From the NCBI GenBank assembly GCA_945890715.1, contig CAMDCX010000002.1, forward strand, positions 11,869-75,868: DNA of 64,000 nucleotides, written 5' to 3'. This document shows positions 1 to 44,197 of the stretch, in pieces (positions within the stretch are counted from its first letter, which is position 1; the number at the start of each line of letters is the position of its first letter). The notes below the pieces were generated by a model. The model saw nothing but the letters and a program-made list of their open reading frames with translations, did not search any database and was not told the DNA's origin. Both the position numbers and the translations under genes were made by a program. Source of the stretch: PVC group bacterium. GTDB taxonomy: Bacteria > Verrucomicrobiota > Kiritimatiellia > CAIKKV01 > CAITUY01.

Positions 1-3000
1 ACCGATGCCCTGGGACAGACCGCCACCCTCGAGTATGACCGGTTCGGAAATTCAATACAGGCAACCGATCCGGCTGGTAATGTTGAGATAACACGATATG
101 ACACTAATGGGGTGCATAGTCTTTCGGTTCGGAACAAGCGCGGATATGAGACACGGTATGACTACGATGGCTACGGGAATTGTGTACGCATTACCGATCC
201 TTGTGGCTTTAGCCGACATGCGAGTTTTAACAAGGTTGGCTGGAAGGAAAGTGAATGCGATGAGGCTGGGGTGGTGTCCCGATTCGAGTATGACCGCAAT
301 GGTCGACTGACGGCCTGTGTCAAATCCGCAGGAACACGGGAGGAGGCGATCACGCGGTTCAGCTATGATGGTCGCGGGTTGCCAGTGGAAATGATGGATT
401 CACGCGGAAACCGGGAAGTGACGGACTATGATGCGACAGGACGACCGACTTGCCTGACCGATAAACTGGGAGGGATAACGCTTACGGATTATGATTGGGA
501 TGACAATCCAGTCCGCATTGGCGATCCGCTCGGACAGGTCGCTGAAAATTTCTGCGATGGACGCGGGAATGTCATTCTTCACTTTGACCGCCGGGGCAGT
601 GCGACAACCGTGGCGTATGATGGCAACAATCAACCGGTTTCCAGTGTCGACGCCGGAGGGAATCGCCTTCAAAAAACCTACGATGAAAACGGAAATCTAC
701 TTGCTGAAAAACGGCAGGCTACGGGTTTCCCGGGATGTCTGCCTGGTGAGATTTCGGAACCGGTAACGGTGACTTATACCTATGATGCCCTTAATCGGAT
801 GACTCAAAAGGTCATCGGGGCAGGGCGGCAGGATGCCAGGGTCTATACCACCGACTACGACTCTTCGGGACGAGTGATTCGTGAAACCGATCCACTCGGG
901 AATTCCCTTGCCACCGGATATGACTCTGAAGGGAATCGCACCAATATCAGCCTTTTTGATGCGAGCGGGAGGCTTGTCAGTAGGGAACTGACCTTCTTTG
1001 ATGCGGCCAACCGTCCGGTCACTGTGATCAAGGGATTCGGTGTCGTTACGGCGACGAACTGGAGCGACTATGATGCCCGTGGACTGAAAGTCTCTACGTG
1101 TGATGGGCGGGGGAACAAAACACTGTTTTCGTACGACACTCACCGGCGCCTTATCTCAACCACGGATCCGCTCGGGACTGTTCATTGGGGGAATTATGAC
1201 AGTCTGGGCAATAAGGTCAGGGAGCGCGAGGCTTCCGGGGCGATTACTGAATATGCCTGGGATGCGGCCGGGCGCCTGACGAACACGGTGGTCGGTGTGG
1301 GACTGTCTGATGCCCGGGTGAGCTTCACGTTCCGTGACCGATTGGGACGGGTGGTGCGGGAAACTGATCCGGAGGGATATTCCCTTTCGTGGACCTATGA
1401 TGCCGAAGGGACTGTGCTTACGGAGACCAATTCGCTGGGGTATGTCAAAGTCTTCTTCCCTGATGCGATGGGGCGGGTCACCAATACGGTTGATGAGGCC
1501 GGGGGACAGATCGGGCAGGCTTTGGATGGCAACGGAAAGCTTCGACGGTTCACCGATAAATTGGGGGGCGTTACCGTCTCCGACTATGATGCGTACGGCA
1601 ATCTCGTCAGTCTTACGGATGCGCTTGGGGGACAGGCAAGATGGGCATATGACGGAAACGACACTAAGATCCGGGAAACTGATCCACGAGGATTGATATC
1701 CTCGCTATTTTATGATGCCGCCGGGCGGATGACCAATAAAACGGCCGGGGTCGGACTGGCTGATGTTTCAAGTTCCCGAGTGGTTTACGATGAATTGGGC
1801 CGGGCGGTGAGATCGTTCAATCCGGTCGGCGGGTGCGAGATCCTGCAGTATGACGTCGTCGGAAACTGCATTGCCAGAACGGATCCCCGTGGTGCTGTGA
1901 CCCATTATGAGTATGATGCGTTGAATCGTCAGACGGTCACAGTGGATGCCTTGGGCGGGAAGACCTCGATAACCTATGATGATCGGGGAAATAGTGTGTC
2001 GATGACGGACGCCCTGGGTGGCCTCTCACGCTCGTCTTATGATGCCTATAACCTGAAGCGGAGTTCCACCGACGCGCTGGGCAACACCACGCGATACCAG
2101 TATGACCGGCTGGGTCGCTTGATTGCCACGACGGATCCCCTGGGCGGTGTTGAATCGCGGGCGTATGATGCTGCTGGGAATTGTGTCGCGACAGTGAATA
2201 AGAACGGGGTCCCGTCCTTTTTTGCCTATGATCGTCTTGGACGTGTTACCAACACGACCGATGCCCTAGGCTATCATACCCGGAAGACCTATGATTCCCT
2301 TGGAAACCTGCTTGAGGCTTTTGATAAGCGCGGGAACGGCATGGTTTATCAGGTTGATAAGCTGGGGCGGAGGATAGCGGTGACTGACCCCGCCTCAAAC
2401 ACCCTGTATTTTGCCTATGACGCAGGCGGAAACAAAATTCAGGAATCCATGCCATCCGGGAGAGTGACCACATCAGGGTATGACGGGTTTGGTCGATTGA
2501 TTCTCAAAACCGTGGGAACGGGGGATCGCGAGGCCCGCCAGACACGGTTAGAATATGATTCCGTGGGGCGACTGACGCGGGATATAGATCCGTATGGGTA
2601 TGCCCTTGAACGCCAGTATGACGCCAATGGAAACACGACCAACATCACGGATCGGCGGGGATATTCGACCCGGATGGAATACGACGAACTGAACCGGTTG
2701 ACCAGGACGATTGATGCGCTGGGGAATTCGTCGTCAGTGATGTATGACCGGCTGGGGCGGATTACGGGAACAACCAATCGGCGTGGTGATACAACCCATC
2801 ACTCCTATGATGCGACAGGACGTCTGACGGCCATTCAGGATGCGGAAGGCCATATCACCAGCAACCGGTATGACAAACTGGGGCGATTGTGTGAGGAAAT
2901 GGCCCCTAACGGACGTCGAACCCTAATGAGTTACGATGCGGTGGGGCAGTTGACCAACAAGACCGTGAGCGGTTCCGGTAGCGAGAGCCGGAATCAGAGC

Positions 3001-3603
3001 TATGGATACGATGCCCTGGGCCGGATGTGCCGGGTTACTGATGCGGCGGGTGGGGAAACAATCCTGGATTATGATCCCACTGGGAATGTGATTCAATCGG
3101 CGACTCTGAATCCCTTAGGAAAAGTTCTGAGACGCCGAAGTACGCAGTATGATTCCCGGAATCTCCCTATCCTTGCTTATGATTACTTGGGGAATGCTTG
3201 GCGGACTGACTATGATTCCAGTGGGCGGAAAACGGGGGAAGAGGATCCGCTCGGAAATCGGACGACAACCGGGTTTAACCGTTTCGATGAAATTGTGTCG
3301 GTAACCGATGCGCTGGCTCACCGCACGGAAACCCGGTACGACCGGTGCGGGCGGAAAGTGGAAGTGGTAAACCCTCTGGGACAGCGTACGAGATACCAGT
3401 ATGACCCCAACGGCAACAGAACAGCCGTCATTGATGATAATGGCAATGCCATGCTCTATGCTTTTGATGCTCTGAACCGGGTGTCCGAAATCAATCGCAC
3501 CATGCCATCGGTTCCGGCTGATGTTCTGAAGCGGGCGGATGTAAATGGGGATGGTCGGATTAATGGGGATGATGTGACCACCCTGGACGGGGGACTCCCA
3601 TGA
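1..3603 (+). CDS. RHS/YD-repeat protein, 5'-partial (continues upstream of window); long YD shell with no RHS core/DPxGL motif
   Basis: Frame 1 is open from nt 1 (TDALGQTATLEYDRFGNSIQATDPAGN...), so the listed Met at 112 is internal. There are dozens of YD repeats (YDxxGRxxxxTDPLGN...). The C-terminus carries a DVNGDGRINGDDV calcium-loop/dockerin-like motif. The stop overlaps the next start (ATGA at 3600-3603). Confidence 0.85.
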   Translation, partial: TDALGQTATLEYDRFGNSIQATDPAGNVEITRYDTNGVHSLSVRNKRGYETRYDYDGYGNCVRITDPCGFSRHASFNKVGWKESECDEAGVVSRFEYDRNGRLTACVKSAGTREEAITRFSYDGRGLPVEMMDSRGNREVTDYDATGRPTCLTDKLGGITLTDYDWDDNPVRIGDPLGQVAENFCDGRGNVILHFDRRGSATTVAYDGNNQPVSSVDAGGNRLQKTYDENGNLLAEKRQATGFPGCLPGEISEPVTVTYTYDALNRMTQKVIGAGRQDARVYTTDYDSSGRVIRETDPLGNSLATGYDSEGNRTNISLFDASGRLVSRELTFFDAANRPVTVIKGFGVVTATNWSDYDARGLKVSTCDGRGNKTLFSYDTHRRLISTTDPLGTVHWGNYDSLGNKVREREASGAITEYAWDAAGRLTNTVVGVGLSDARVSFTFRDRLGRVVRETDPEGYSLSWTYDAEGTVLTETNSLGYVKVFFPDAMGRVTNTVDEAGGQIGQALDGNGKLRRFTDKLGGVTVSDYDAYGNLVSLTDALGGQARWAYDGNDTKIRETDPRGLISSLFYDAAGRMTNKTAGVGLADVSSSRVVYDELGRAVRSFNPVGGCEILQYDVVGNCIARTDPRGAVTHYEYDALNRQTVTVDALGGKTSITYDDRGNSVSMTDALGGLSRSSYDAYNLKRSSTDALGNTTRYQYDRLGRLIATTDPLGGVESRAYDAAGNCVATVNKNGVPSFFAYDRLGRVTNTTDALGYHTRKTYDSLGNLLEAFDKRGNGMVYQVDKLGRRIAVTDPASNTLYFAYDAGGNKIQESMPSGRVTTSGYDGFGRLILKTVGTGDREARQTRLEYDSVGRLTRDIDPYGYALERQYDANGNTTNITDRRGYSTRMEYDELNRLTRTIDALGNSSSVMYDRLGRITGTTNRRGDTTHHSYDATGRLTAIQDAEGHITSNRYDKLGRLCEEMAPNGRRTLMSYDAVGQLTNKTVSGSGSESRNQSYGYDALGRMCRVTDAAGGETILDYDPTGNVIQSATLNPLGKVLRRRSTQYDSRNLPILAYDYLGNAWRTDYDSSGRKTGEEDPLGNRTTTGFNRFDEIVSVTDALAHRTETRYDRCGRKVEVVNPLGQRTRYQYDPNGNRTAVIDDNGNAMLYAFDALNRVSEINRTMPSVPADVLKRADVNGDGRINGDDVTTLDGGLP

Positions 3604-6600
3604 GGGTGCCGATCTCCATAACCCGGGTTGTTCTGGCGTTTGGTATTGCCGCCGTGTGGTTGGTTTCAGGAGTTTCGGTCGCGACCCCCGAGTGGTGGAC
3701 GAGTCGAAAGGTTCTTGTCACGAACGCAATTCCGGAAGATTTTGCGCCGGTTCTCCAGGGGCAGGTCTGGTGGTTGGCAACCAATGCCTTCGCTGAATTC
3801 CAAGGGAAAATGCCCGGCGGGGCAGGGGATGAGGTGCAACACTTGATTACAAGCCCGGCGACTAGCAGTGATTTCAGCCCCGTCGCTATCGGACAGTTGA
3901 AGACTGTAGGGGCAGCATTTTACAGGCGTCTGATGGGGGAGGGTGTGGCAACCGGGTATCCGTGGGGGACGGATGATGGGGCTGATTTTGCGCCAGCAAC
4001 GATCGGGCAGGCAAAATCAGTGTTTGGGTTTGATTTGGAGGGTGCGGTATTCAGTCCGTCGATCTCCGGCCAGATTGCCTATCCCGGTTCTCAGCTCGGC
4101 TTGATTCGGGTGGTGGCGGTGCCGGTGGATCGGCCTTGCATCGAAGCGTGGGCGGATATCGCCGAAACAGGCGCCTATCATGTGGTGTCCGGGCGAGGTG
4201 CCGCGACATGGAGGATTGAGGCCTGGCGTGATTCCGATCAAAACGCGAGGCAGGATGCGTGGGAGGCCTGTGGAGAGTATCCGCTCAATCCCCTCACGGT
4301 CACCTCGGTCGTTTCAGGAATTGATCTGGTGTTGTCCGATCCGGATGAGGACGGTGATGGAATTCCAGGTTACCGTGAAATTGAACTCGGGCTTGATCCG
4401 GATTACCCCTTTGATGCCCTGGTTGATGCCGACGGTGATGGATTGTCGTTGGCAGATGAATTTCGGTTCGGATCCGATGCCCTCAAGGGGGATTCCGATG
4501 GGGATGGAATGGGAGATGGCGCTGAGATCCTGAACGAGTTCTCTCCGACGACTGGACACACTCATACTCGTCTTCCGTTCATTGAATCGTTTGAGCTTCC
4601 GGCTATTACCAACGGAATCCTCGCAGGACAAAAACAATGGCTTTCAACCGGAGGGCTTCTTGCGGTTGTATCTACGAATCCGGTGATATCGGGAAGCCAG
4701 ACGCTGTGGCTCCACGCTTCGACTAATACGGGGGCGGCGATTATTCAGCCTTTGGCCACCCATGGATTTGATCGGATCTGGATCGATTATCAGGCAATAC
4801 CCGTTTGGCGTTCAGCCAACAATGCCCCTTTGCCTGCTGCTGGATCCGTCGCTTCATTCTATTTCAACCCATCGGGAAAGATTGTTGTGTATGACAACTC
4901 GTGGCCACCCGGCGAATGGATGACATTGACCAATACCCCGATCCTGTCACGCAACAATGCGGTTCGGTTGACGGTTCAACTCGATTATGGACGCCGTATC
5001 TGGGGGCTGTGGCTCAACGGAACCAACATGCTGAAGGCGCTTCCGTTCGTAGGTGCTACTTCGGAATTGGCCCGGCTCCGGTTTACAGGCGCCTGGTATT
5101 CGGATACGGCCCTTGATCAGATTTCGGTTACGACCAATGCGCCTACAGGATTTGTGGCGGATTCGGATGGCGATGGCCTGCCGGATGATTGGGAATTGGC
5201 AAATGGCTTTGATCCTTATGAGGCGGACGATGCTTCGTCCGATTCCGACCGGGATGGCCTAACCAGCCTTCAGGAGTATACGCTGAACCTTGATCCCCGG
5301 GATTCTGATTCCGACCATGACGGCTGGAATGACGGCGCAGAAGTGGCTCTTGGAAATCCTTCTGTTTATGAGGATCCGAAATGGATGGCGACACTGCCGT
5401 TTGACGAGCCGTTTGAATCCCCGGTTGTGACGAATGGCGATCTTGCGGGACAGCATGGTTGGCTGGTCTCTCAAACCAACTGGGCACTCGTTCAAGGAGA
5501 AAAGCATGTCGGTGGATCTCAGTCTTTGAAATTAACTCCCAAATCAGACGTAACGGAAAACCTCTTCCATGTTGTAAAGGGGCCTTTCGGGGGTATCACT
5601 TGGACGGATTTCTGGGCTATTCCGGTAGGGCGTCAAATCGCGGGGCATCCTGTGATTCAGCCGTCTACCACGGCTTCCTTTTTCATCGACCATGACGGTT
5701 TTCCTGTTGTGCGAGATGGCGCAGAGTGGAAAATTGTGACGAATGCGCCGGTGATATCAGGGACAAATTGGCACCGGTTTACTCTCATGCAGGATTTTTC
5801 AAATTCTGTCTGGAGTTTATGCCTAGATGGCTTTCCTGTGGCTGTCGACCTGAGATTTGCGCATCCCCTCACCCAATATACCGGGGTCAGGGTTTCAGGT
5901 GCCTGCAACGCGGCAACATGGCTGGATGATCTCCATGTGACAACCGTGGCACCGGGGGATATTGATAGTGATGGGGACGGTCTTCCGAATGCCTGGGAAA
6001 TCGCCTACGGCTTCAATCCGAGCGATCCATCGGATGCCTCCGATGATCCTGATTCCGATGGTCTCGCCAATGAGGAAGAGTATCACTTTGGGCTTAATCC
6101 GGTTAACCGTGATACGGATGGCGATGGGATGGGTGACGGGGCTGAAATCATGCGGGGATATTCCCCGACGAATGCGGGATCATTTCGTTGTCTTCCATTT
6201 GCCGAACTCTTTGAGCCGACTGCGGTTACTAACGGTACTCTTGCGGGACAACAGGGGTGGATCGTGGTTTCGTCAAATGCTACGGCGGTGGTTCAGACGG
6301 ACATGGTGTGGGAGGCGACCCAGGCTTTGCAACTGGGCGGGTGTACTTCTCCTGTGTCCATTTTTAATCCCGTGGCGGCTGTGGGAATTCCGGTTGTTTG
6401 GACTGATCTGCGGGCCAAGCCCGTATTCCGGTCAGTGGCTAGCATGCCGGTTCTGGATGCTGCGTCGGTTCTGGGATTATTTGTAAACAAGGAGGGGTAT
6501 GTTGTTGCTCGTGATGGGTGTGATTGGATAACCCTGACCCATCATCAGTCGTTGATGACGAACGTCTGGAGCCGATTTACCACCTGTCAGGACTATGACA

Positions 6601-9600: not shown

Positions 9601-12600
9601 AACAATCCGGAACGGTGACAGTCTATGATGCGGGCAACCGCCCGGTTCGCAGGGTGAATGCCAACGGTGGTTCTGTGGTGACTGCCTATGATGCGTTGGG
9701 CAACAAGACGTCCTTTACGGACGAATTGGGGTATGTCAGTCGCTGGACTTATGCCCATGGGAAACGGCTTGAAGGATATTCCCTGCCCGACGGTACGGGG
9801 GTCACCCATCACTATGATGCCTTGGATCGTTTGGTAGAGGTGCGGGTAAATGGTACGGCGCAACAGGCGTATGCGTATGACGGGGTATCCCGACTGACGA
9901 ATTCGATCGATTACAACCAAGCTGGTTCGGCAGATGATAGTGTTGTGGCCTACGACTATGATGCTCTCAACCGGGTTGTTGAGGAGCGTCAAAATGGAAA
10001 AAGAATTCAACGCCAGTTTGATACGGGGGGGCACGCTGTGGCGGTGACTTATCCTTCCGGCTTTGTGTTGAAACGGTCATTTGACGCCAAGGGTCGTCTT
10101 GCAGGCCTAAAAAACGAGGACGGCACGACGACCTATTCCGCCTATGCTTATACACCCAATTCCCGAATCCAGACTATCACGTATGGAAACGGGGTGGTGG
10201 AAACGCATGGACTGGATTCCCGGGAGCGATTGCAGACGCTGTTTCAGCAGGGAATTCACTGTGATCTGCGGGCCACATTGGCGCGGGATCCCGGTGGGAA
10301 TGTGACGCTGTGCTCCCAAAACGGGGGCGCAGGGGATGTGTTCATGTATGATTCCCTGAGCCGGGTTGTAGCGCGAAAAAACCTGAGCAACGTGTTTGAG
10401 GAATCGCTCCGGTATGATGCTCTTGGAAATTGGTTGTCCACATCCAATCCGGTTGAAGGGTCTGTTTCCCGTTCGGTAAATGTCGGCAATCAGTATGACC
10501 AGATCGGGGCGCAATCGCTCCGGTATGATTTGAACGGAAGCCTGACTAATTGGAACAACCGAAATTTTATTTATGACTATCTGGCACGGCTTGTGGAGGT
10601 TCGGTCGAATGGACAGGTGATTGCCCGGTACCGTTATGATGCCGCAAATCGTCGTGTCGGCAAGGATACCGTTGCAGGTCATCAGGCCTACTACTATGAC
10701 GGGGATACCCTTATTGATGAATCGACGAATGAGGCCTGGACTCGAAGCACCATTCACGGGGGCACTTTGGATACACCGGTGGCCATGGTGAGCGGCGGGG
10801 CGACATTCTATTATTTGAGGGATTGGCGGGCTAATATCGCCGCTCTTATCGATTCAGGGGGAACTCCCGTTGAAAGCTACCAGTATTCCCTTTTTGGCCG
10901 GATGACGGTAGTGAACGCCGAGGAAAATCCGGTTCAGCAAAGCGGGTTCGGCACGATCTGGACCTTTGCCGGACGCCAGTGGGATGCCGAAACAGGGTTG
11001 ATGCACAACCGGAACCGGACTTACTCGGCTGAACTGGGCCGGTTCCTCCAGCGCGATCCTGCGGGGTATGTCGATGGAATGAATCTTTATGCCTATGCAG
11101 GAAATAATCCGTTGCTGTTCTCAGACCCGTATGGATTGTACCGGTGGAGTCATGGTGCGCTGGATAGCCGTGTTGGCGACTGGATATTCGAGCAATACGG
11201 ACAAGTTCGTGAAATGGAGCGGCAGCGACGGGAGTATGAGGAGGCGCTTCGCCAGGCCGAGGAGGAGCGTCAGCGAATTGAACAGGAAAACGAGTATGCG
11301 GCTCGTGCCTTCAACCAGTACAAGAACGCGCATGTCGGCGAAATCAAGACTATGGTCGGGAAGTATCGCCACTTGGGGGTGAACGAGAACGAGGCGGCAC
11401 AGCTTCTCATGAGCGGGATCAGCTCGATTCCCAGGCTCGGGGCAACGGTGGGACCCAATGACACCCGGCGAGGCTGGTGGCTGGATTATTACCTGCGCGG
11501 CGGCCAGGTCAATACCACCATGCGTGACGAGATGCGCAGCGCGGGGGTCGGGACGGTGGATGAGTTTTTTGCGAAGACCTCCCAAAAGGAAACCGCATTG
11601 CGGGATAAACGGAAGGCTACGCAGCAGCAATATACCATGGCGGCCGTGGCGATTGTGGCCACGGTGGTAACCTGCGGGGCGGGTGGGGTCTTGGGGGCCG
11701 CGTTACTCGGAACCGTGGGGGTCACGGCAACCACCGCGTCGTTCGGCGCCTTTGTTGCAGGGGCAGTAGCGATTCAAGGGGTGTCGGCCGCCGCCACGAC
11801 GATGATCTCGCATGGCAATCTCAGTGACTTCGCCCAGTCATGGGCGATCAACTCTGCAGCTAGTGTGGCGGGGTATGGGGCTGGTTATTCAGCGGCCAAG
11901 GCGGGTGCGGATCTCAATATCCAATTGGCGACCCAATCGGCCGCGAGCACCTTTGTGTCGTCAGGCTCCCGTGCCACATTGGCGGGTGAGGGCTTTAAAA
12001 ATGTGTTCCGGGATACGGCGATCAGCTTTGTGGCCGGAGGCATGATGGGAACATTCATGAAGGCGGAGGGAACTGGTTCGGTGCCTGCCAATTTTGGTGA
12101 GTATGTGAATAATGGGGCATCATCCTCGTTCGGATATCTACATTCCCCGCTTTCAGGAGGGGTTCAAGGTTCGCTGCATGCCGCGGTATATGGTGGAAAT
12201 ATGGTGGAGGCCTTTGGCGAGGGCTCAATTTCAAAGGAGGCCTTGACGAGTTATCTGATGGCTTCAGAAGTGTCGCAGGCTGCGAAATGGATGTCGGATC
12301 AGCTTGTCTCAGCACTTCCCAATGCGCCACGTCAGACGGCTCAATCCCGTGAATGGAAGGCGACTCCGGCGGCCGTCCATTCGGATAATTCGGTTAAGCG
12401 GATGGAGAACTCACAATCCTGGCAATCCCGGATGAGGAATGCGGCGATTGGAAGTGTGGTCACTGTGGCCAGTCATCTGGAGGAAATCATCGTGGCACCA
12501 GCCCGGGCGGTCTCGGAAATCTATTCAACTATGACGGCAGAGTCCTGGAAGATTCGGTCGCATGTGATCAATCCGTTTTCAAGAAGTTTTGCGGGGTATC

Positions 12601-13313
12601 AGATTCTGGATAAAGCCACGGATGCTGCACAGGTTGCCGCAGGCCTCCCCATCAGTTTTCTGTCCGGCGATTTCATGGATGTTCAGAAATCTGGGGCGAT
12701 GACCTTGGATGCGCGACGAAAACTCGTGACCTTCAACGGGATGTTTAATGACAGTGCGGATGCCGCCAAAATGAGAGATGTCACCCGCCGGCAGTTTTCG
12801 GTGAGTGATTCCGCGCATATTGCCAATCGATCCGCTTTTTATGGGATTGGGGATGTCCTTCAAGTATTAGGAAATGAGTTTGGGTTGATTGACATCACCG
12901 CGATCAGAGGTGCTGCGGCGTTGCGGCAAGCCTCTGCCACACCGGGGTCGATCAATGTGGTGGCTCACAGTCAGGGAAGCATGACCTTCCGGCGTGCGCT
13001 CGATCTGGTGGATGAGCCGTCTGTCCGGGGACGGATTGCCTATCAGGGGTATGGTCCTGAGATTAATATCAGTCAAAGTTATCTGGGGCTTCAGTCTGCT
13101 CAGAACTTCTGGAATCAGGAGAAGGGCGGCGCCCAACGTTTTGATCGGGTTCCCCAGGCCAATTATTTTCCTTTGCCCGCCAGAATCATGGGCGATCCTT
13201 TTATGATGCAAGGTTCTACGGAATGGCAAGTTGTGGATTCCCCGGGAAATCGGCTTGTCCCGGGCGGAAATAGACATGGGTATCAGGATTATTATGGAGG
13301 GTATGCCTACTAA
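3600..13313 (+). CDS. Giant (3,237 aa) secreted/surface RHS polymorphic toxin: signal anchor, TSP3 repeats + 4 beta-sandwich modules, LamG, YD shell, RHS core, long C-terminal toxin region
   Basis: N-terminal hydrophobic segment VVLAFGIAAVWLVSGVSVA. Repeated DxDxDGxxDxxE (thrombospondin type-3-like) blocks. LamG_3-like segment ending GGLDDVRLYHRALAAGEIQEL. YD repeats from about nt 8700. RHS core signature RTYSAELGRFLQRDPAGYVDGMNLYAYAGNNPLLFSDPYGL. Confidence 0.9.
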   Translation: MRVPISITRVVLAFGIAAVWLVSGVSVATPEWWTSRKVLVTNAIPEDFAPVLQGQVWWLATNAFAEFQGKMPGGAGDEVQHLITSPATSSDFSPVAIGQLKTVGAAFYRRLMGEGVATGYPWGTDDGADFAPATIGQAKSVFGFDLEGAVFSPSISGQIAYPGSQLGLIRVVAVPVDRPCIEAWADIAETGAYHVVSGRGAATWRIEAWRDSDQNARQDAWEACGEYPLNPLTVTSVVSGIDLVLSDPDEDGDGIPGYREIELGLDPDYPFDALVDADGDGLSLADEFRFGSDALKGDSDGDGMGDGAEILNEFSPTTGHTHTRLPFIESFELPAITNGILAGQKQWLSTGGLLAVVSTNPVISGSQTLWLHASTNTGAAIIQPLATHGFDRIWIDYQAIPVWRSANNAPLPAAGSVASFYFNPSGKIVVYDNSWPPGEWMTLTNTPILSRNNAVRLTVQLDYGRRIWGLWLNGTNMLKALPFVGATSELARLRFTGAWYSDTALDQISVTTNAPTGFVADSDGDGLPDDWELANGFDPYEADDASSDSDRDGLTSLQEYTLNLDPRDSDSDHDGWNDGAEVALGNPSVYEDPKWMATLPFDEPFESPVVTNGDLAGQHGWLVSQTNWALVQGEKHVGGSQSLKLTPKSDVTENLFHVVKGPFGGITWTDFWAIPVGRQIAGHPVIQPSTTASFFIDHDGFPVVRDGAEWKIVTNAPVISGTNWHRFTLMQDFSNSVWSLCLDGFPVAVDLRFAHPLTQYTGVRVSGACNAATWLDDLHVTTVAPGDIDSDGDGLPNAWEIAYGFNPSDPSDASDDPDSDGLANEEEYHFGLNPVNRDTDGDGMGDGAEIMRGYSPTNAGSFRCLPFAELFEPTAVTNGTLAGQQGWIVVSSNATAVVQTDMVWEATQALQLGGCTSPVSIFNPVAAVGIPVVWTDLRAKPVFRSVASMPVLDAASVLGLFVNKEGYVVARDGCDWITLTHHQSLMTNVWSRFTTCQDYDKTNWTLYVNGERWATNLAFACPSKEYSGFGVKGPLYRPGFLDAVMVSTNPPLDIDMDGDGLPGDWETLYGLNPGNPSDSWVDSDQDGLSNLDECRLGTNPWLRDTDGDGIGDGAELIVGGVPSLSNEFFRLPFVEGYEAPMVISGNLVCQNGWLASGSNAVMVQSNCVFEGIQALALGSTGMATHVFASDGAPVVWIDFQARLARRLTQAEPIISSNSASAFFINSSGLLVLSGKASSTQRWDVLSSHVPVTTGQWIRLTACLNYPAQRWSLWLNGVRVASELCFANPVVEFSRAQFHGPALSVATLDNLAITTNEPPGLDTDGDGLPNAWEIAHGFDPSDPSDSSDPDCDGLTNFEEYQLGLDPCDPDTDHDGLVDGHDGIMPMGLFPAGVDVTGDGFADGESDFGCDPLLDDSDQDGITDGEEVRMGLDPCHSTIGQGLAAWYKLDETNGIMIADSSPNHRGGEWVGAGSVTGTVGRMDGALQCDGRGDGVMIATTNLLDLNTNFTISVWVCPDSRGTNPVQVIVSQGSAGAMVLNQGKPEFRVLNVPTGLVACAASLPARAWTHVAVVREGDVVSLFVEGKTVSSNRVSGTVPGTAALWGLGYNPGLASQYFAGGLDDVRLYHRALAAGEIQELVVLGGDFDGDTVGNKEELRSGADPFSSPLPAVMAGDLDGDGRVTGRDRDRLVALADEMTRDVTRFSYDAEGNVTRKVDAMGNATEMTYNRNNRLLGTRDANGHLQLNEIDSMGAVVATTDAMSALTRFDYDGFGSVIQVTDAVGKATRMEYNLLGQVVRTVNSRGTAQVTLYDDLGRVECVVAAAGTPEEQRSWSYYDAGDNLVSNRNNIGVINEYQYDACGKMVKQILARGTSGEKVDETIYDARGLAVSRKDSRGYWSHVGYDALARQVSTTDALGHVSQELYDNLGNVISSIQPNGRTVQTDYDKWGRAVRVRDGNDITETGYDVLDRVVSKTDWRGIRAANFYDAVGNLTNAVEALGTPEQSGTVTVYDAGNRPVRRVNANGGSVVTAYDALGNKTSFTDELGYVSRWTYAHGKRLEGYSLPDGTGVTHHYDALDRLVEVRVNGTAQQAYAYDGVSRLTNSIDYNQAGSADDSVVAYDYDALNRVVEERQNGKRIQRQFDTGGHAVAVTYPSGFVLKRSFDAKGRLAGLKNEDGTTTYSAYAYTPNSRIQTITYGNGVVETHGLDSRERLQTLFQQGIHCDLRATLARDPGGNVTLCSQNGGAGDVFMYDSLSRVVARKNLSNVFEESLRYDALGNWLSTSNPVEGSVSRSVNVGNQYDQIGAQSLRYDLNGSLTNWNNRNFIYDYLARLVEVRSNGQVIARYRYDAANRRVGKDTVAGHQAYYYDGDTLIDESTNEAWTRSTIHGGTLDTPVAMVSGGATFYYLRDWRANIAALIDSGGTPVESYQYSLFGRMTVVNAEENPVQQSGFGTIWTFAGRQWDAETGLMHNRNRTYSAELGRFLQRDPAGYVDGMNLYAYAGNNPLLFSDPYGLYRWSHGALDSRVGDWIFEQYGQVREMERQRREYEEALRQAEEERQRIEQENEYAARAFNQYKNAHVGEIKTMVGKYRHLGVNENEAAQLLMSGISSIPRLGATVGPNDTRRGWWLDYYLRGGQVNTTMRDEMRSAGVGTVDEFFAKTSQKETALRDKRKATQQQYTMAAVAIVATVVTCGAGGVLGAALLGTVGVTATTASFGAFVAGAVAIQGVSAAATTMISHGNLSDFAQSWAINSAASVAGYGAGYSAAKAGADLNIQLATQSAASTFVSSGSRATLAGEGFKNVFRDTAISFVAGGMMGTFMKAEGTGSVPANFGEYVNNGASSSFGYLHSPLSGGVQGSLHAAVYGGNMVEAFGEGSISKEALTSYLMASEVSQAAKWMSDQLVSALPNAPRQTAQSREWKATPAAVHSDNSVKRMENSQSWQSRMRNAAIGSVVTVASHLEEIIVAPARAVSEIYSTMTAESWKIRSHVINPFSRSFAGYQILDKATDAAQVAAGLPISFLSGDFMDVQKSGAMTLDARRKLVTFNGMFNDSADAAKMRDVTRRQFSVSDSAHIANRSAFYGIGDVLQVLGNEFGLIDITAIRGAAALRQASATPGSINVVAHSQGSMTFRRALDLVDEPSVRGRIAYQGYGPEINISQSYLGLQSAQNFWNQEKGGAQRFDRVPQANYFPLPARIMGDPFMMQGSTEWQVVDSPGNRLVPGGNRHGYQDYYGGYAY
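4335..7900 (+). repeat. Four tandem ~800-nt intragenic modules (TSP3 Ca-binding linker + ~190-aa beta-sandwich-like domain)
   Basis: Module starts LPFIESFELPAITNGILAGQKQW (4572), LPFDEPFESPVVTNGDLAGQHGW (5394), LPFAELFEPTAVTNGTLAGQQGW (6192), LPFVEGYEAPMVISGNLVCQNGW (6990). Spacing is 822/798/798 nt. Each module ends LDxxxVTTNxP followed by DSDGDGLPxxWE...DSDxDGLxNxEE...DTDGDGxGDGAE. Confidence 0.85.
7915..8515 (+). other. LamG/concanavalin-like lectin domain within the giant protein
   Basis: GLAAWYKLDETNG...FTISVWVCPD...WTHVAVVREGDVVSLFVEGK...GGLDDVRLYHRALAAGEIQEL follows the Laminin_G_3 pattern. Confidence 0.7.
8700..11138 (+). other. YD-repeat shell plus RHS-associated core ending at the predicted autoproteolysis motif DPYGL (11124-11138)
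   Basis: RFSYDAEGNVTRKVDAMGN... repeats run through RYRYDAANRRVGK, then ...GRFLQRDPAGYVDGMNLYAYAGNNPLLFSDPYGL. Confidence 0.85.
11139..13310 (+). other. 724-aa C-terminal variable (toxin) region: charged coiled coil, Gly/Ala-rich hydrophobic segment, C-terminal alpha/beta-hydrolase (putative lipase/esterase)
   Basis: EMERQRREYEEALRQAEEERQRIEQENEY (about 11210-11320). AAVAIVATVVTCGAGGVLGAALLGTVGVTATTASFGAFVAGAVAIQGV (about 11631-11810). Nucleophile elbow INVVAHSQGSMTF with the Ser codon at 12969-12971. Confidence 0.55.
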
Positions 13314-13314
13314 C

Positions 13315-13833
13315 ATGAAAAAGAGGACTCAGTTGACAGGACGGGGTTATGGGGCGGTGCTGGCCGCAATGGCCCTGGTATTTTCCGGTGGATGTGTATC
13401 GGGAAATTATGATCTTTCCCTTACCCCGCCCTATCAAGAGCAAGTGGGGGCTGACTATGAGTTGGCAGAAGACAGCTATATTGTCACCCTCCGGGAAATG
13501 GATGAACTCTTTTTGATCAACCGATGCAGTGCCTTTAGTCAGCCCTTTCCTGTTGATTCCCAGTATATGGGGAAAAGCACACAGGACATCAACATCAAGG
13601 GGGTGATTCCCAAGGGAACGGTATTAAAGGTGACAGCCATCCGGGGCTCCGAGTCGTTTGACGCCGGGCGTACGGTGGAGTTTTTTCTCGAAATGGGCCG
13701 TGCCGCGACGGAGCCACGGCTTCGATTGAATGCCTGCTTTTTAGAGGAGCGAGAAGGCGCGGTATACCGCTTGGATGGAAAAGCTTTCATTCAACGGGGT
13801 GTGGGTGACAAGTCGGGTAGCGGGAAATTGTAA
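13315..13833 (+). CDS. Small lipoprotein (172 aa), candidate cognate immunity protein
   Basis: The ATG at 13315 lies 1 nt after the toxin stop codon (TAA 13311-13313). Signal peptide with a lipobox-like MKKRTQLTGRGYGAVLAAMALVFSGGC. I recognised no family. The earlier Met at 13231 would overlap the toxin by 83 nt and was not used. Confidence 0.6.
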   Translation: MKKRTQLTGRGYGAVLAAMALVFSGGCVSGNYDLSLTPPYQEQVGADYELAEDSYIVTLREMDELFLINRCSAFSQPFPVDSQYMGKSTQDINIKGVIPKGTVLKVTAIRGSESFDAGRTVEFFLEMGRAATEPRLRLNACFLEEREGAVYRLDGKAFIQRGVGDKSGSGKL

Positions 13834-13845
13834 AGAGGGAAGACG

Positions 13846-14919
13846 ATGAAATTGAATATTAATCGGGTCGTGTTGTTGATGATGATAGTGGTATGCGGGC
13901 GATGCCTTGCCTGGACTGATCTAAGTGGGGGTGATCATGGGGGCAGCAATTGGGTCATTGCCGGTGGCGCCACAATCGCCAATAATCATTACGGTATTGG
14001 AATGATGACTATCAGTTCAGGGATGACGGTTTCTGTAAAAGGGTGGGATGGTTCCGCGTACGGAGGGGTTTCTATCAGCGCCAACGACATCCGGATTGAC
14101 GGGGTGTTGGATGCATCCGGAGCAGGTTATACAGGAGGAAATGGAGGGAATGGTGGATTCGGGTCTGCTTCCATCGGAGCTTCTGGAGGATCGGGAGGGA
14201 CCGGGTCCCCGGGATCCGGTCCGTTTGGGGGCAGTGGCGGGGTTTCGGGGAGCGGGGGATATGATTCAGGAAATCCCGCTTTGACCAGACCTGGTTGGCC
14301 CGGTGGGTACGGCGGGATGGGGGGGTATGCCACCAGCGGAATGCAGGGTGATGCCACCACCAATGATGCTGTATTGATGGGTGGTGGTGGTGGCGGGGGC
14401 GCCGGGGGCGGGGCGGGATGGAATCTACTAGGGACAACCTCAGGTGGGGGCGGCGGGGCTGGCGGAAATCCGGGTGCTGGCTGGATCAAGTTGTATGCAA
14501 CCAATACGATTGTGGTGCGAGGAACAGTTCAGGCCAAGGGACTCGCAGGAGCCAGGCAGAATGGCGGGACTGGGCAGACTCAGATGCCGGCTGCTCAAGG
14601 CGGAAATATGGGGTCCTCCACAGTCGCGGGGCAAAGTCTTGGCGGCTCCGGCGGCGCTTCCATCCCGGCGCAATGTTATCCGGCCGGGCTGGGCGGCAAT
14701 GGCGGCGCGGGCGCGGGCGGCGGTATTCTTTTGCAGGCCAGCACCGTGGACACGCTCGGTGGAAATCTTGACAACCGGGGCGGCGGGAATTCCCTGGTGA
14801 ATGGCGGAACCCTGAAGATCATCTATATCACGCTCCAAGGAGGGAGCTATACCAATACCGGCCGAACCTATCTGCAACAACTCATGCCACCGGAGCCGGG
14901 GACGGTGTTTGAATTTTGA
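13846..14919 (+). CDS. Glycine-rich secreted protein (357 aa), function unknown
   Basis: Signal peptide MKLNINRVVLLMMIVVCGRCLAWT. Central ~200 aa are dominated by GGxGG runs (GGNGGNGGFGSAS..., MGGGGGGGAGGGAGW...). Both ends have beta-strand-like rungs (VSISANDIRIDGVLDASG, GGTLKIIYITLQGG). The gene starts 12 nt after the lipoprotein gene. Confidence 0.6.
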   Translation: MKLNINRVVLLMMIVVCGRCLAWTDLSGGDHGGSNWVIAGGATIANNHYGIGMMTISSGMTVSVKGWDGSAYGGVSISANDIRIDGVLDASGAGYTGGNGGNGGFGSASIGASGGSGGTGSPGSGPFGGSGGVSGSGGYDSGNPALTRPGWPGGYGGMGGYATSGMQGDATTNDAVLMGGGGGGGAGGGAGWNLLGTTSGGGGGAGGNPGAGWIKLYATNTIVVRGTVQAKGLAGARQNGGTGQTQMPAAQGGNMGSSTVAGQSLGGSGGASIPAQCYPAGLGGNGGAGAGGGILLQASTVDTLGGNLDNRGGGNSLVNGGTLKIIYITLQGGSYTNTGRTYLQQLMPPEPGTVFEF

Positions 14920-42802: not shown

Positions 42803-42832
42803 TTGATTGCATGGTTTTTTGCGTGGTATACA
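42803..42832 (+). promoter_or_regulatory. Candidate promoter for the hexokinase gene (extended -10)
   Basis: TTGATT (42803-42808), 18-nt spacer, TGgTATACA (-10 at 42827-42832). An upstream inverted repeat CCCGGGTAAA...TTTAACCCGGG lies in the divergent region. Confidence 0.35.
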
Positions 42833-42854
42833 GAGCCACCTGTTTGGAGGAAAA

Positions 42855-44189: not shown

Positions 44190-44197
44190 ATTCGATC

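What the first reader, a model, noticed from the sequence alone, without database searches (positions are those of the whole stretch)
1..14919. Four tightly coupled genes form an unusual RHS polymorphic-toxin locus with no recognisable delivery machinery
Seen in sequence: the YD-shell protein stop overlaps the start of the 3,237-aa protein (ATGA, 3600-3603). The lipoprotein ATG (13315) lies 1 nt after the toxin stop. The Gly-rich protein starts 12 nt after that. This looks like one operon: YD-shell protein -> TSP3/LamG/RHS toxin -> lipoprotein -> glycine-rich secreted protein. No VgrG/PAAR/Hcp (T6SS), TcA-like or two-partner-secretion genes occur in the 64 kb. Instead the toxin carries its own N-terminal signal anchor and about 1,400 aa of Ca-binding/lectin-like surface modules. 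That points to a Sec-dependent, surface-displayed RHS toxin, a delivery route that is poorly characterised. The fourth gene has no counterpart in classical Rhs toxin/immunity pairs.
Basis: partly seen in the sequence, partly recalled or inferred. Interest (0 to 1): 0.8.

Follow-up and report, generated by a model that had tools for sequence, protein, structure and literature searches.

The report
Sec-exported two-gene RHS lipase-toxin operon
A lake-dwelling Kiritimatiellia bacterium carries a conserved operon in which every protein has a secretion signal: two coupled RHS "cage" proteins, one carrying a membrane-inserting lipase-like cargo, plus small secreted partners. It is an uncommon, T6SS-independent variant of a known toxin type, not a new kind of system.

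Summary
The sequence observation holds. The ORFs, the ATGA overlap (3600-3603), the 1-nt and 12-nt gaps and the RHS/TSP3/LamG domains are all present. No T6SS, Tc or TPS gene lies in the 64 kb or in the 6.4 kb upstream.

The interpretation needs four corrections:
- **Operon size.** It has six genes. Two small secreted proteins (pA, pB) precede gene 1, which is 1,925 aa in full.
- **Conservation.** pA-pB-g1-g2-g4 is conserved in at least 14 species-level Kiritimatiellia/Verrucomicrobiota lake MAGs. The g1/g2 4-nt overlap is kept in 19 of 19 loci.
- **Downstream genes.** The lipoprotein (g3) occurs only in the window's subclade. The Gly-rich g4 is the constant downstream partner.
- **Toxin tip.** The 724-aa tip is not polymorphic; it is as conserved as, or more conserved than, the rest of g2. 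It has a clade-specific helical/hydrophobic module and a minimal alpha/beta-hydrolase (AHSQG Ser-Asp-His, cutinase/lipase fold). The hydrolase fits the "Tox-ABhydrolase-2" of Zhang et al. 2012.

The g2 N-terminus looks like a cleavable signal peptide, not an anchor. The N-plug (DUF6531) is only in g1 and the C-plug/autoprotease only in g2, which suggests a TcB/TcC-like composite cage. Sec-exported LamG-RHS toxins are already a described class.

The parts
1..3603 (+). g1, 3' part (aa ~726-1925 of a 1,925-aa protein). The full protein is signal peptide + DUF6531 (RHS N-terminal plug) + ~1,300 aa of RHS repeats with two inserted ~150-aa domains. It has no RHS core or toxin and ends in one dockerin-like Ca-loop/helix tail (RADVNGDGRINGDDV..LP*).
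   Evidence: RHS repeats. Full length and DUF6531 from identical contig L001 4227-10004. No TIGR03696 hit. PDB matches only to mid-shell parts. Tail conserved in 19 loci.
3600..13313 (+). g2, a 3,237-aa exported RHS protein whose start overlaps the g1 stop (ATGA).
   Evidence: The overlap is conserved in 19 of 19 loci.
3600..3683 (+). g2 signal peptide (aa 1-28, ...VSVA|TPEWW), predicted to be cleaved.
   Evidence: Basic n-region, hydrophobic core (KD 2.3) and an AxA site followed by a conserved mature end, [TSA]P[DE]WW, in 14 of 16 orthologues. Inferred from sequence; no SignalP was run.
4380..7919 (+). Stalk of four ~270-aa modules. Each has a triplet of TSP3-type DxDxDG calcium motifs plus an unassigned ~200-aa domain starting LPFxE. 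A TSP3 linker follows.
8058..8504 (+). Laminin_G_3 (concanavalin-like lectin) domain, aa 1487-1635.
   Evidence: Pfam E 3.3e-31.
8613..8672 (+). Single dockerin/EF-hand-like loop-helix (GDLDGDGRVTGRDRDRLVAL) just before the RHS repeats.
   Evidence: Conserved in all 8 full-length orthologues. The function is inferred.
8628..10883 (+). RHS/YD repeat shell of g2 (~750 aa). No DUF6531 plug was detected.
   Evidence: PDB matches to T6SS Rhs shells and a teneurin-like protein.
10884..11138 (+). RHS-associated core (C-terminal plug and aspartyl autoprotease): ...GRFLQRDPAG-x19-DPYGL|YRW.
   Evidence: TIGR03696 E 3.8e-21. The motif is invariant in orthologues. Motif function is taken from PMC10684867.
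11139..12269 (+). CT1, a clade-specific cargo module (aa 2514-2890): coiled/helical part, then a Gly/Ala-rich region with two strongly hydrophobic segments (aa ~2677-2737, nt 11628-11810). It is the most conserved part of g2.
   Evidence: No family or PDB hit. Hydropathy and restriction to the orthologous giant proteins. Identity is 68-79% in distant orthologues against 39-56% for the stalk modules, LamG and shell.
12450..13310 (+). CT2, a minimal alpha/beta-hydrolase toxin domain. It has FNG, the AHSQG nucleophile elbow (Ser3124, nt 12969-12971), Asp3182 and His3226.
   Evidence: Invariant residues. AF2 model pLDDT 88. Foldseek top hits are cutinases and lipases, prob 0.97-1.0. The PDB profile matches the AHSQG elbow of family I.5 lipases. 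The family has 219 clusters at the C-termini of RHS and TPS proteins. The motifs fit Tox-ABhydrolase-2.
13315..13833 (+). g3, a 172-aa putative lipoprotein found only in this subclade. It is a candidate (extra) immunity protein.
   Evidence: Present in L004, L009, L010 and L013; absent elsewhere. No Pfam, NCBIfam or PHROG hit.
13846..14919 (+). g4, a 357-aa secreted Gly-rich protein. The mature N-terminus (AWTDLGGGDHGGSNW) and C-terminus (PPEPGTVFEF) are conserved. It is the constant gene downstream of g2.
   Evidence: Synteny. Found alone in L006. No Pfam, NCBIfam, PHROG or PDB hit.
14932..14946 (+). Weak terminator-like hairpin 13 nt after the g4 stop. The convergent methyltransferase gene (14882-15760, minus strand) marks the end of the unit.
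   Evidence: The overall scan is at chance level, so only the position is suggestive.

Best explanation
This is a vertically inherited cassette of freshwater Kiritimatiellia: pA-pB-g1-g2-g4, plus g3 in this subclade. It encodes a wholly Sec-exported RHS encapsulation toxin that needs no T6SS, Tc or TPS partner.

- **g2** is exported and its signal peptide is cleaved. Its ~1,650-aa calcium-binding TSP3/beta-sandwich/LamG stalk acts as an adhesin.
- Its RHS shell ends in a canonical aspartyl-autoprotease core, which cuts after DPYGL and frees a 724-aa cargo.
- **The cargo** has two parts. A helical, two-hydrophobic-segment module is proposed to insert into a target membrane. A Ser-Asp-His minimal alpha/beta-hydrolase of the Tox-ABhydrolase-2 type is proposed to be a lipase/esterase that damages the envelope.
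- **g1** is made by translational coupling. It supplies the only DUF6531 N-plug and a long cargo-less RHS shell, and it most likely works as a stoichiometric partner of g2.
- **g4** is an obligatory secreted accessory. Whether it is an immunity protein or a fibre/adhesin-like protein is not resolved.
- **g3** is a recent add-on and could be a periplasmic immunity lipoprotein.

Shown: the gene anatomy, the domains, the synteny, the conservation pattern and the hydrolase fold with its motifs. Inferred: surface display, cargo release, membrane insertion, lipid substrate, the g1-g2 complex, and the roles of g3 and g4.
For: **Anatomy and coupling:**

**Signal peptides:** all six products have N-terminal signal peptides.

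**No delivery genes:**
- None in the window or upstream.
- No conserved gene upstream of pA in 10 loci.

**Conservation:**
- The cassette occurs in at least 14 species-level MAGs and in metagenome contigs.
- g4 travels with g1-g2 in at least three different chromosomal neighbourhoods.

**Core and cargo:**
- The core motif is intact in all orthologues.
- The cargo is conserved end to end, with CT1 the best conserved part.

**CT2 as a hydrolase toxin:**
- Invariant FNG / AHSQG / D / H residues.
- Strand-Ser-helix elbow in a pLDDT-88 model.
- Cutinase, LipA and pancreatic-lipase fold matches, and a family I.5 lipase elbow match.
- The same domain ends RHS and TPS/haemagglutinin proteins elsewhere.
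- The motif set equals Tox-ABhydrolase-2.

**Plugs:** DUF6531 is the N-plug and the DPxG-x19-DPxG core is the C-plug in solved Rhs cages. Here they are split between g1 and g2.
Against: - No experiment or expression data exist. Promoter and terminator scans are at chance level.
- How 200-350 kDa proteins would cross the outer membrane of a diderm is unknown.
- A ~750-aa shell cannot plausibly enclose a 724-aa cargo on its own. The solved Tse5 cage of ~1,120 aa holds 149 aa.
- The substrate of Tox-ABhydrolase-2 was left open by its describers. Foldseek E-values are only 1e-3 to 2e-2, with TM 0.3-0.55.
- The lack of tip polymorphism and the patchy g3 are atypical for an interbacterial toxin/immunity pair.
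- g4 also exists without any RHS gene in L006.
Confidence: 0.55

Rival explanations
1. It is a classical polymorphic toxin/immunity pair for competition between close relatives. g2 is the toxin, the gene right after it is the cognate immunity protein (g4 in most lineages, g3 here, or both), and g1 is a degenerate or ancillary RHS paralogue.
For: - The core plus C-terminal toxin architecture is present.
- CT2 is a mobile toxin cassette found on RHS and TPS proteins.
- g4 sits 16-80 nt after g2 wherever g3 is absent.
- An 'orphan' g4 without the toxin in L006 is a pattern typical of immunity genes.
- An orphan RHS-core fragment follows g4 in L002 and L018.
- g3 and g4 are exported, as the immunity proteins of periplasm-acting lipases are (own knowledge of Tle/Tli).
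Against: - There is no identity drop after DPYGL. The tip is 51-96% identical across orthologues and CT1 is the best conserved region.
- g1 is under strong conservation, with its N-terminal part 63-92% identical, and is always translationally coupled, so it is not a relic.
- g4 is 357 aa, about 40% glycine, and has distant relatives in phage tail modules.
- Imm-SUKH, the immunity family recorded for Tox-ABhydrolase-2, is absent.
Confidence: 0.2
2. It is not an antibacterial weapon but a conserved surface or extracellular device for the organism's own lifestyle. It would attach to algal, cyanobacterial or particle glycans through the TSP3/LamG stalk and deploy an encapsulated esterase or lipase on prey, host or substrate membranes (predation or nutrient acquisition).
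For: - Inheritance is vertical and non-polymorphic across a whole clade.
- The lectin-like stalk is very large.
- There is no consistent immunity gene.
- Tox-ABhydrolase-2 occurs without immunity in an amoeba endosymbiont and was suggested to act on host molecules.
Against: The RHS cage plus autoprotease is otherwise known only as a toxin-containment device. There is no direct ecological or expression evidence. In practice this reading overlaps with the best explanation and differs only in the target.
Confidence: 0.15
3. g4, and perhaps pA and pB, are merely neighbouring genes with no functional tie to the RHS pair.
For: - g4 stands alone in L006 with its own 389-nt upstream gap.
- L007 has a 359-nt gap before g4.
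- No domain links g4 to RHS biology.
Against: - g4 follows g2 in 11 of 11 loci, although downstream neighbours differ: methyltransferase/PRT, HSP20/FtsH or PA14.
- pA and pB precede g1 in all 12 loci that reach that far, and upstream contexts differ.
Confidence: 0.07

Closest known systems
Sec/T2SS-class RHS polymorphic toxins with N-terminal laminin-G domains, and the Tox-ABhydrolase-2 toxin domain (Zhang et al. 2012, PMC3482391)
   Same: - Signal peptide, LamG adhesion module, RHS repeats, core and a C-terminal toxin.
- The CT2 motifs FNG, D/E, R, AHSQG, D, H match the published 'NG, [DE], [KR], HSxG, D, H'.
- The published family is reported on FilH and RHS proteins and in Verrucomicrobia. 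CT2 has the same distribution.
   Different: - The tip is not polymorphic in this clade.
- A 380-aa clade-specific membrane-type module precedes the hydrolase.
- A coupled cargo-less RHS gene and a Gly-rich partner are obligatory.
- No Imm-SUKH is present.
- Membership of CT2 rests on motifs only, because the authors' profile is not available here.
Tc toxin BC subcomplex (TcB/TcC, e.g. TcdB2-TccC3, YenB/YenC2)
   Same: Two adjacent genes each contribute RHS repeats. Only the second carries the aspartyl-protease core and the cargo. The g2 core matches the TccC and YenC2 cores.
   Different: - There is no TcA.
- No SpvB or TcdB mid-N/mid-C domains were found in g1.
- g1 has a DUF6531 plug instead.
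- Both proteins have Sec signal peptides.
- g2 carries a 1,650-aa adhesin stalk.
- The cargo is 724 aa.
Bacterial teneurin-like proteins (PMC13018210, 2026)
   Same: They are Sec-dependent, presumed surface-exposed YD-shell toxins with N-terminal adhesion domains, a DPxG...DPxG core and a gene immediately downstream. g2 hits the TEN_YD-shell Pfam model and the solved TLP 9ifo.
   Different: - No FN-plug, NHL or TIP domains were detected.
- TLP tips average ~15 kDa and are hypervariable, whereas this tip is 78 kDa and conserved.
- TLPs have no coupled second RHS gene.
- The phylum is not among the six reported.
T6SS Rhs effectors (RhsA, Tse5, Rhs1, TseI)
   Same: RHS cage, a DUF6531 N-plug (in g1), and a C-plug with DPxG-x19-DPxGL (in g2). 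They give the best PDB sequence matches. Tse5's tip is likewise a membrane-inserting toxin.
   Different: There is no PAAR, prePAAR, VgrG, Hcp or Eag, and no T6SS genes nearby. Sec signal peptides are present. The two plugs lie on two proteins.
T6SS lipase effectors Tle1-4 with periplasmic Tli immunity proteins; WapA of Bacillus
   Same: Like the Tle effectors, CT2 is an alpha/beta-hydrolase toxin with a GxSxG-type elbow, and exported or lipoprotein immunity candidates lie downstream. Like WapA, g2 is a Sec-dependent RHS toxin. Both comparisons rest on my own knowledge.
   Different: No sequence relationship to the Tle families was detected; there is no DUF2235 or other Pfam hit. WapA belongs to monoderms and is anchored to the cell wall.

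Membership tests
RHS/YD-repeat encapsulated toxin (Rhs family, broad sense) | Multiple RHS/YD repeats forming the shell | tested here: met
   PF05593 E 7e-153 for g1 and 1e-41 for g2. TIGR01643 also hits.
RHS/YD-repeat encapsulated toxin (Rhs family, broad sense) | RHS-associated core with the bipartite DPxG-x18/19-DPxG(L) aspartyl autoprotease motif | tested here: met
   g2 aa 2429-2513, TIGR03696 E 3.8e-21. The motif DPAG-x19-DPYGL is invariant in 8 orthologues. It is absent from g1. Cleavage itself was not tested.
RHS/YD-repeat encapsulated toxin (Rhs family, broad sense) | N-terminal plug (DUF6531) on the same polypeptide as the core | tested here: not met
   DUF6531 is found only in g1 (E 2.7e-11). 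None is found in g2.
Polymorphic toxin system (Zhang/Aravind sense) | C-terminal toxin domain that varies between related loci, with identity collapsing after the core | tested here: not met
   Across orthologues the tip is 51-96% identical, equal to or above the rest of the protein. Only a ~60-aa linker is variable. The CT2 domain is nevertheless shared with unrelated RHS and TPS proteins.
Polymorphic toxin system (Zhang/Aravind sense) | Cognate immunity gene immediately downstream | tested here: inconclusive
   g4 is always downstream and g3 only in one subclade. Neither belongs to a known Imm family. Binding and neutralisation were not tested.
T6SS-delivered Rhs effector | PAAR/prePAAR or VgrG-binding N-terminus, Eag chaperone, and T6SS genes | tested here: not met
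   No such Pfam or NCBIfam hits in g1, g2, pA or pB. None occur in the window or upstream. The rest of the genome was not examined.
Tc (ABC) toxin BC component | TcB with SpvB and TcdB mid-N/mid-C domains plus a beta-propeller; a TcA partner | tested here: not met
   No hits to those families in full-length g1 (window part at E<=0.01, N-terminal 758 aa at E<=1). No TcA-like ORF is in the window.
Tc (ABC) toxin BC component | Cocoon built from two polypeptides, with core and cargo on the second | not testable with these tools
   Only indirect support: complementary plugs, a conserved ATGA coupling and paired half-dockerin motifs. Complex prediction or cryo-EM is needed.
Bacterial teneurin-like protein | FN-plug + NHL beta-propeller + YD-shell superfold (plus a TIP domain in 96% of members) | tested here: not met
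   Only the YD-shell is detected. Just ~40 aa separate LamG from the first RHS repeat. The definition comes from PMC13018210.
Alpha/beta-hydrolase fold (lipase/cutinase-like) | Strand-nucleophile-helix elbow (Sm-x-Ser-x-Sm) and a Ser-Asp-His triad in that order on an alpha/beta core | tested here: met
   - AHSQG follows strand 123-128 and precedes helix 131-141 of the model.
- The Ser and Asp are invariant and the His nearly invariant (>=90%) across family alignments.
- Foldseek prob 0.97-1.0 to cutinases and lipases, but E is only 1e-3 to 2e-2.
- The profile hits the family I.5 lipase elbow at E 0.03.
- Spatial proximity of the triad was not checked.
Tox-ABhydrolase-2 (Zhang et al. 2012) | Motifs NG, [DE], [KR], HSxG, D, H; located at C-termini of FilH/RHS toxins | tested here: inconclusive
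   All the motifs and the architectural distribution fit. No profile of the published family was available for a direct test, and no Pfam or NCBIfam model covers CT2.

The most novel reading that the evidence does not exclude
g1 and g2 assemble end to end into one oversized composite RHS cocoon. g1 brings the N-plug and g2 the C-plug, and the two are joined by their single dockerin-like Ca-loop motifs pairing in trans. This cocoon would be big enough for the 78-kDa self-translocating cargo.

Together with the small secreted proteins pA and pB and the fibre-like Gly-rich g4, it would form a self-contained, Sec-exported toxin-delivery particle. That would be a functional analogue of ABC toxins without a TcA and without any dedicated secretion machine.
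Probability: 0.15. Interest if true: 0.8.

Novelty: new variant of a known kind. Interest (0 to 1): 0.5.

Why it matters
How Sec-exported Rhs toxins of diderm bacteria reach and enter a target is still unknown.

This cassette is compact, conserved as a block in different genomic contexts, and free of any known injection machinery. Its five or six secreted proteins are therefore a defined candidate set for that route.

It also supplies three specific leads:
- a natural split of the two Rhs plugs onto two translationally coupled proteins;
- a cargo that carries its own membrane module;
- a fold assignment (cutinase/lipase-like Ser-Asp-His) for a widespread toxin domain (219 sequence clusters) that has no Pfam or NCBIfam model.

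The limits are that there is no cultured host, there are no expression data, and the roles of g1, g3 and g4 are only inferred.

Tried and rejected
- **Word-indexed homologue search with the 724-aa tip.** It returned only 4 fragments, which first suggested a rare, possibly polymorphic tip. Direct comparison with orthologous loci showed the tip is conserved in every orthologue, so that impression was an artefact of the search.
- **First AF2 model of CT2 from 5 sequences.** It was poor (pLDDT 43) and its Foldseek hits were only suggestive. A 24-sequence alignment gave pLDDT 88.
- **Family and structure searches for g3 and g4.** Pfam, NCBIfam and PHROGs gave nothing. A PDB profile search with the g4 family gave nothing. 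tblastn of g4 and of a phage-context relative against GenBank phages gave nothing.
- **Link between g4 and phage tail-module proteins.** It rests on HMMER scores that may be inflated by glycine content. Composition-adjusted pairwise BLASTP gives only E 0.01-0.14, though shared non-Gly motifs exist. I keep it as a lead, not a finding.
- **pB as a lipoprotein.** Rejected, because the Cys is not conserved.
- **PEP-CTERM sorting for g4.** Rejected, because no transmembrane or basic tail follows PEP.
- **Tox-WTIP for CT1.** Only a loose 'SSIP' resemblance and no Pfam hit.
- **Promoter and terminator scans and Rfam on the leader.** Chance level, or nothing found.
- **Conserved gene upstream of pA.** None; the histidine kinase is specific to this locus.

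Full report
**1. Observation**

The window opens inside a frame-1 ORF that runs to a TGA at 3601-3603 and is saturated with RHS/YD repeats (Pfam RHS_repeat, 22 stretches, E 7e-153). ATG 3600-3602 overlaps that stop (ATGA). It starts a 3,237-aa ORF ending at 13313.

A 172-aa ORF starts at 13315, 1 nt after the TAA. A 357-aa Gly-rich ORF starts at 13846, 12 nt after the previous stop, and ends at 14919. The next gene (14882-15760) is a convergent methyltransferase, so the unit ends at g4.

**2. Upstream of the window**

An ENA metagenome contig identical to window 1-14971 (0 mismatches) extends 6.4 kb further (L001).
- Gene 1 is 1,925 aa. It has a signal peptide (..NSAYS|APQAAPS), DUF6531, and RHS repeats interrupted by two ~150-aa inserted domains.
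- It is preceded by pB. This is 89 aa, with a signal peptide and a ~65-aa mature part built of LTVxG-type repeats.
- Before pB lies pA. This is 226 aa, with a signal peptide, a beta-rich part and TSP3 repeats.
- Before pA lie a 280-nt AT-rich gap and a divergent hybrid histidine kinase.

So the operon has six genes, and all six products begin with Sec-type signal peptides (g3 has a lipobox).

**3. No delivery machinery**

Every sizeable ORF from 14.9 to 64 kb hits ordinary families. These include phosphoribosyltransferase, ilvC, glycosyltransferases, glycogen synthase, mraZ-mraW-ftsI-murE-murF-mraY-murD-ftsW, Lon, a multihaem cytochrome/TPR protein and serA. They also include RACo, a CsgG-like lipoprotein, hexokinase, an inverse-autotransporter-type protein, dinB and RseP. 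The rest are an ECF sigma factor, a PIN protein, a CusCBA-like pump, AraC and an MFS transporter.

There is no VgrG, PAAR, Hcp, TcA or TpsB. In ten orthologous loci the 1.2-3.2 kb upstream of pA share no conserved gene. The absence is therefore a property of the cassette, not of this one genome. The remainder of the genome could not be examined.

**4. Distribution and synteny**

A scan of one genome per species (185,579 species) found full-length relatives only in 14 MAGs. They are labelled Kiritimatiellia, Verrucomicrobiota or 'bacterium'. Several isolate names suggest lake metagenomes, for example Loc..-8m, ELA.., ME2014 and Rohwer bins. Two MAGs carry two copies.

tblastn mapping and gene tables from further metagenome contigs give this picture:
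- pA-pB-g1-g2 is present in every locus that reaches that far.
- The g2 ATG overlaps the g1 stop by 4 nt in 19 of 19 loci.
- g4 follows g2 in 11 of 11 loci where the 3' end is visible.
- g3 is present only in the window's close relatives (L009, L010 and L013 at 80-84%; L004 at 54%).
- g3 is absent from L002, L003, L018, L089, L090 and L091, where g4 starts 16-83 nt after the g2 stop. In L007 an unrelated 107-aa ORF takes its place.
- The whole database holds only nine g3 homologues, all at least 79% identical.
- The neighbours downstream of g4 differ: methyltransferase/PRT, HSP20/FtsH or PA14. The g1-g2-g4 linkage is therefore not just shared ancestry of one neighbourhood.
- One related genome (L006) keeps g4 in the same PRT-ilvC-glycogen synthase-mraZ neighbourhood but has no RHS genes.

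**5. Anatomy of g2**

From N- to C-terminus:
- **Signal peptide.** It has an AxA site followed by a conserved mature end, [TSA]P[DE]WW, in the 14 of 16 orthologues whose start is called cleanly. I read it as cleavable, not as an anchor.
- **N-terminal region** with three DF[AS]P..GQ.K motifs.
- **Four ~270-aa modules.** Each has three TSP3-type DxDxDG calcium sites plus an unassigned ~200-aa domain starting LPFxE, at aa 325, 599, 865 and 1131.
- **Laminin_G_3**, aa 1487-1635.
- **A single dockerin/EF-hand-like loop-helix**, GDLDGDGxVT..DR..L.
- **About 750 aa of RHS repeats.**
- **A canonical core**, GRFLQRDPAG-x19-DPYGL, invariant in orthologues.

In solved Rhs cages the core is the C-terminal plug and aspartyl autoprotease, and DUF6531 is the N-terminal plug (PMC10684867). 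Here DUF6531 occurs only in g1, and the core only in g2.

**6. The cargo**

The 724 aa after DPYGL have no Pfam, NCBIfam or PDB sequence match.

In distant orthologues, per-region identity to the window protein is 39-56% for the signal/N-terminal region, stalk modules, LamG and shell, and 59-69% for the short TSP3 linker. It is 69-78% for the core and 68-79% for the first 380 aa of the tip (CT1). It is 20-30% for a ~60-aa linker and 51-55% for the last ~290 aa (CT2). There is no collapse of identity after the core, so the tip is not polymorphic in this lineage.

CT1 contains a coiled/helical part and two strongly hydrophobic Gly/Ala-rich segments at aa ~2677-2737. Apart from the signal peptide, these are the only segments of g2 with that hydropathy. 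CT1 occurs only in the orthologous giant proteins.

CT2 is a separate, widespread domain:
- An exhaustive profile search found 219 representative clusters, mostly at the extreme C-termini of proteins up to 3,687 aa.
- Of 34 members scanned, 10 are RHS proteins and one is a TPS/haemagglutinin (CdiA-type) protein. No Pfam model covers the domain itself, and no NCBIfam model does either.
- Residues invariant or nearly invariant (>=90%) across the family are FNG, GD..Q, E, AHSQG, D and H.
- A 24-sequence alignment gave an AF2 model with pLDDT 88. In it AHSQG sits between a strand and a helix, the nucleophile elbow.
- Its best PDB fold matches are cutinases, B. subtilis LipA, pancreatic-lipase-related proteins and palmitoyl thioesterases. 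Probabilities are 0.97-1.0, E-values 1e-3 to 2e-2, and target-normalised TM reaches 0.55.
- A profile search of PDB sequences aligns the elbow with the identical AHSQG of Geobacillus family I.5 lipases at E 0.03.

The motif set and the FilH/RHS, T2SS/T5SS/T6SS distribution equal those published for 'Tox-ABhydrolase-2' (PMC3482391). The authors of that family left its substrate open. The lipase/cutinase-like fold found here adds to that description. It does not prove a lipid substrate.

**7. g3 and g4**

g3 has a conserved Cys in a PROSITE-type lipobox and no detectable family.

g4 forms a family of about 24 full-length homologues at 47-90% identity. It has an invariant mature N-terminus (AWTDLGGGDHGGSNW), several Gly tracts separated by beta-strand-like I.L.A..I.V.G segments, and an invariant C-terminus (PE.GTVFEF).

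More distant relatives share the non-Gly motifs QGDxTT, GAGGGILL and RGGG..NGGTLK. Two of them sit in phage-like contexts: one directly after baseplate genes, the other after an endolysin. Composition-corrected pairwise E-values are only 0.01-0.14, so this is a lead. pB gives weak PHROG hits to baseplate wedge proteins (E 1e-4 to 1e-2).

g4 could therefore be the immunity protein, given its position and the orphan copy in L006. It could instead be a fibre or adhesin-like accessory. I could not decide between these.

**8. Mechanism proposed**

- **Shown:** a conserved, coupled, all-secreted cassette; an intact autoprotease core; a conserved two-part cargo ending in a Ser-Asp-His alpha/beta-hydrolase that is used as a toxin tip elsewhere.
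- **Inferred:**
  - g1 and g2 are made in fixed proportion, exported by Sec, and act together.
  - The stalk binds surface glycans.
  - The core releases the cargo inside the cage.
  - On contact, CT1 inserts into a target membrane and CT2 hydrolyses envelope lipids or esters.

The complementary plugs, the single F-hand motif at the end of g1 (conserved in 19 loci), the matching motif before the g2 shell, and the mismatch between a ~750-aa shell and a 724-aa cargo all point the same way. For comparison, Tse5's ~1,120-aa cage holds 149 aa. Together they make a TcB/TcC-like composite cocoon attractive. It remains untested.

**9. Comparison and novelty**

Sec/T2SS-exported RHS toxins with LamG modules are a catalogued class. 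Sec-dependent surface YD-shell toxins (teneurin-like proteins) were recently characterised. T6SS Rhs cages are the closest solved relatives.

This locus fails the defining tests for T6SS Rhs effectors, Tc BC components and teneurin-like proteins. It also fails the 'polymorphic tip' criterion.

New here are:
- the obligatory coupled plug-plus-shell partner;
- the conserved 78-kDa cargo with its own membrane module;
- the Gly-rich partner;
- the lineage.

I rate it a new variant of a known kind and moderately interesting.

Noticed in passing
L002 4321-4506; L018 ~20280-20434: Right after g4 there is an ORF starting with an RHS-core-like fragment (..YYGHRYYFPGMGRWMSRDPIEEKG..). Its core type differs from that of g2, so it may be an orphan or displaced RHS toxin tip. 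It is seen only in these two related loci.
   Followed up: partly
L001 4227-6500 (g1 aa ~130-290 and ~520-690; upstream of the window): Two duplicated ~150-aa domains are inserted among the first RHS repeats of g1. They share the motif (S/R)WTW(S/A)D(L/I)(N/S) and end in V.Y.R. No family matches them.
   Followed up: no
window 3690-4050 (g2 aa 30-150): The motif DF[AS]P(V/A)..GQ(L/V/A)K occurs three times after the conserved mature N-terminus PEWW. It is unassigned and conserved in orthologues.
   Followed up: no
L001 3950-4219 (pB) and 3250-3930 (pA): pB is a highly conserved ~65-aa mature secreted protein (GELTVxGxLTVKTNLxVxGQL...PQGDLxMGPYTN). It gives weak PHROG hits to phage baseplate wedge proteins. 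The C-terminus of pA looks like the first turns of a parallel beta-helix that stops abruptly.
   Followed up: partly
L089 16084-21074: In one orthologous locus a T2SS-F/G plus pseudopilin (N_methyl) cluster lies ~5 kb downstream of g4. It is not seen in the other loci.
   Followed up: no
window 41767-42729 (-); L006 13489-15267: The window holds a CsgG-like lipoprotein gene. In L006 a CsgG/DUF4810/GNA1162-like trio lies 2.4 kb from the solitary g4. It could be a secretion channel of unknown cargo. No link to the RHS cassette was established.
   Followed up: no
window 29860-32061: A MurD-type ligase in the dcw cluster is fused to three C-terminal LysM domains (733 aa). This is an unusual fusion.
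   Followed up: no
window 44186-47077: A 963-aa protein has an inverse-autotransporter beta-domain (E 2.7e-15) and an otherwise unassigned passenger. It lies directly after a hexokinase gene.
   Followed up: no
window 20054-21886 (-) and 42807-44189: A Glycogen_syn (PF05693, E 2e-210) glycogen synthase and a Hexokinase_1/2 hexokinase are present. From memory, both families are mainly eukaryotic. Both are conserved in the related MAG contigs.
   Followed up: no
window 35651-37909: A 752-aa protein combines several multihaem cytochrome c motifs with a long TPR region. It lies just after lon.
   Followed up: no
L004 11124-12141 (-); L006 2458-3671: Small toxin-antitoxin or abortive-infection genes (AbiEii; ParE/Unstab_antitox) flank g4 in related genomes. 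In L006 they occupy the place of the RHS genes, which hints that this site is a hotspot for gene gain and loss.
   Followed up: no
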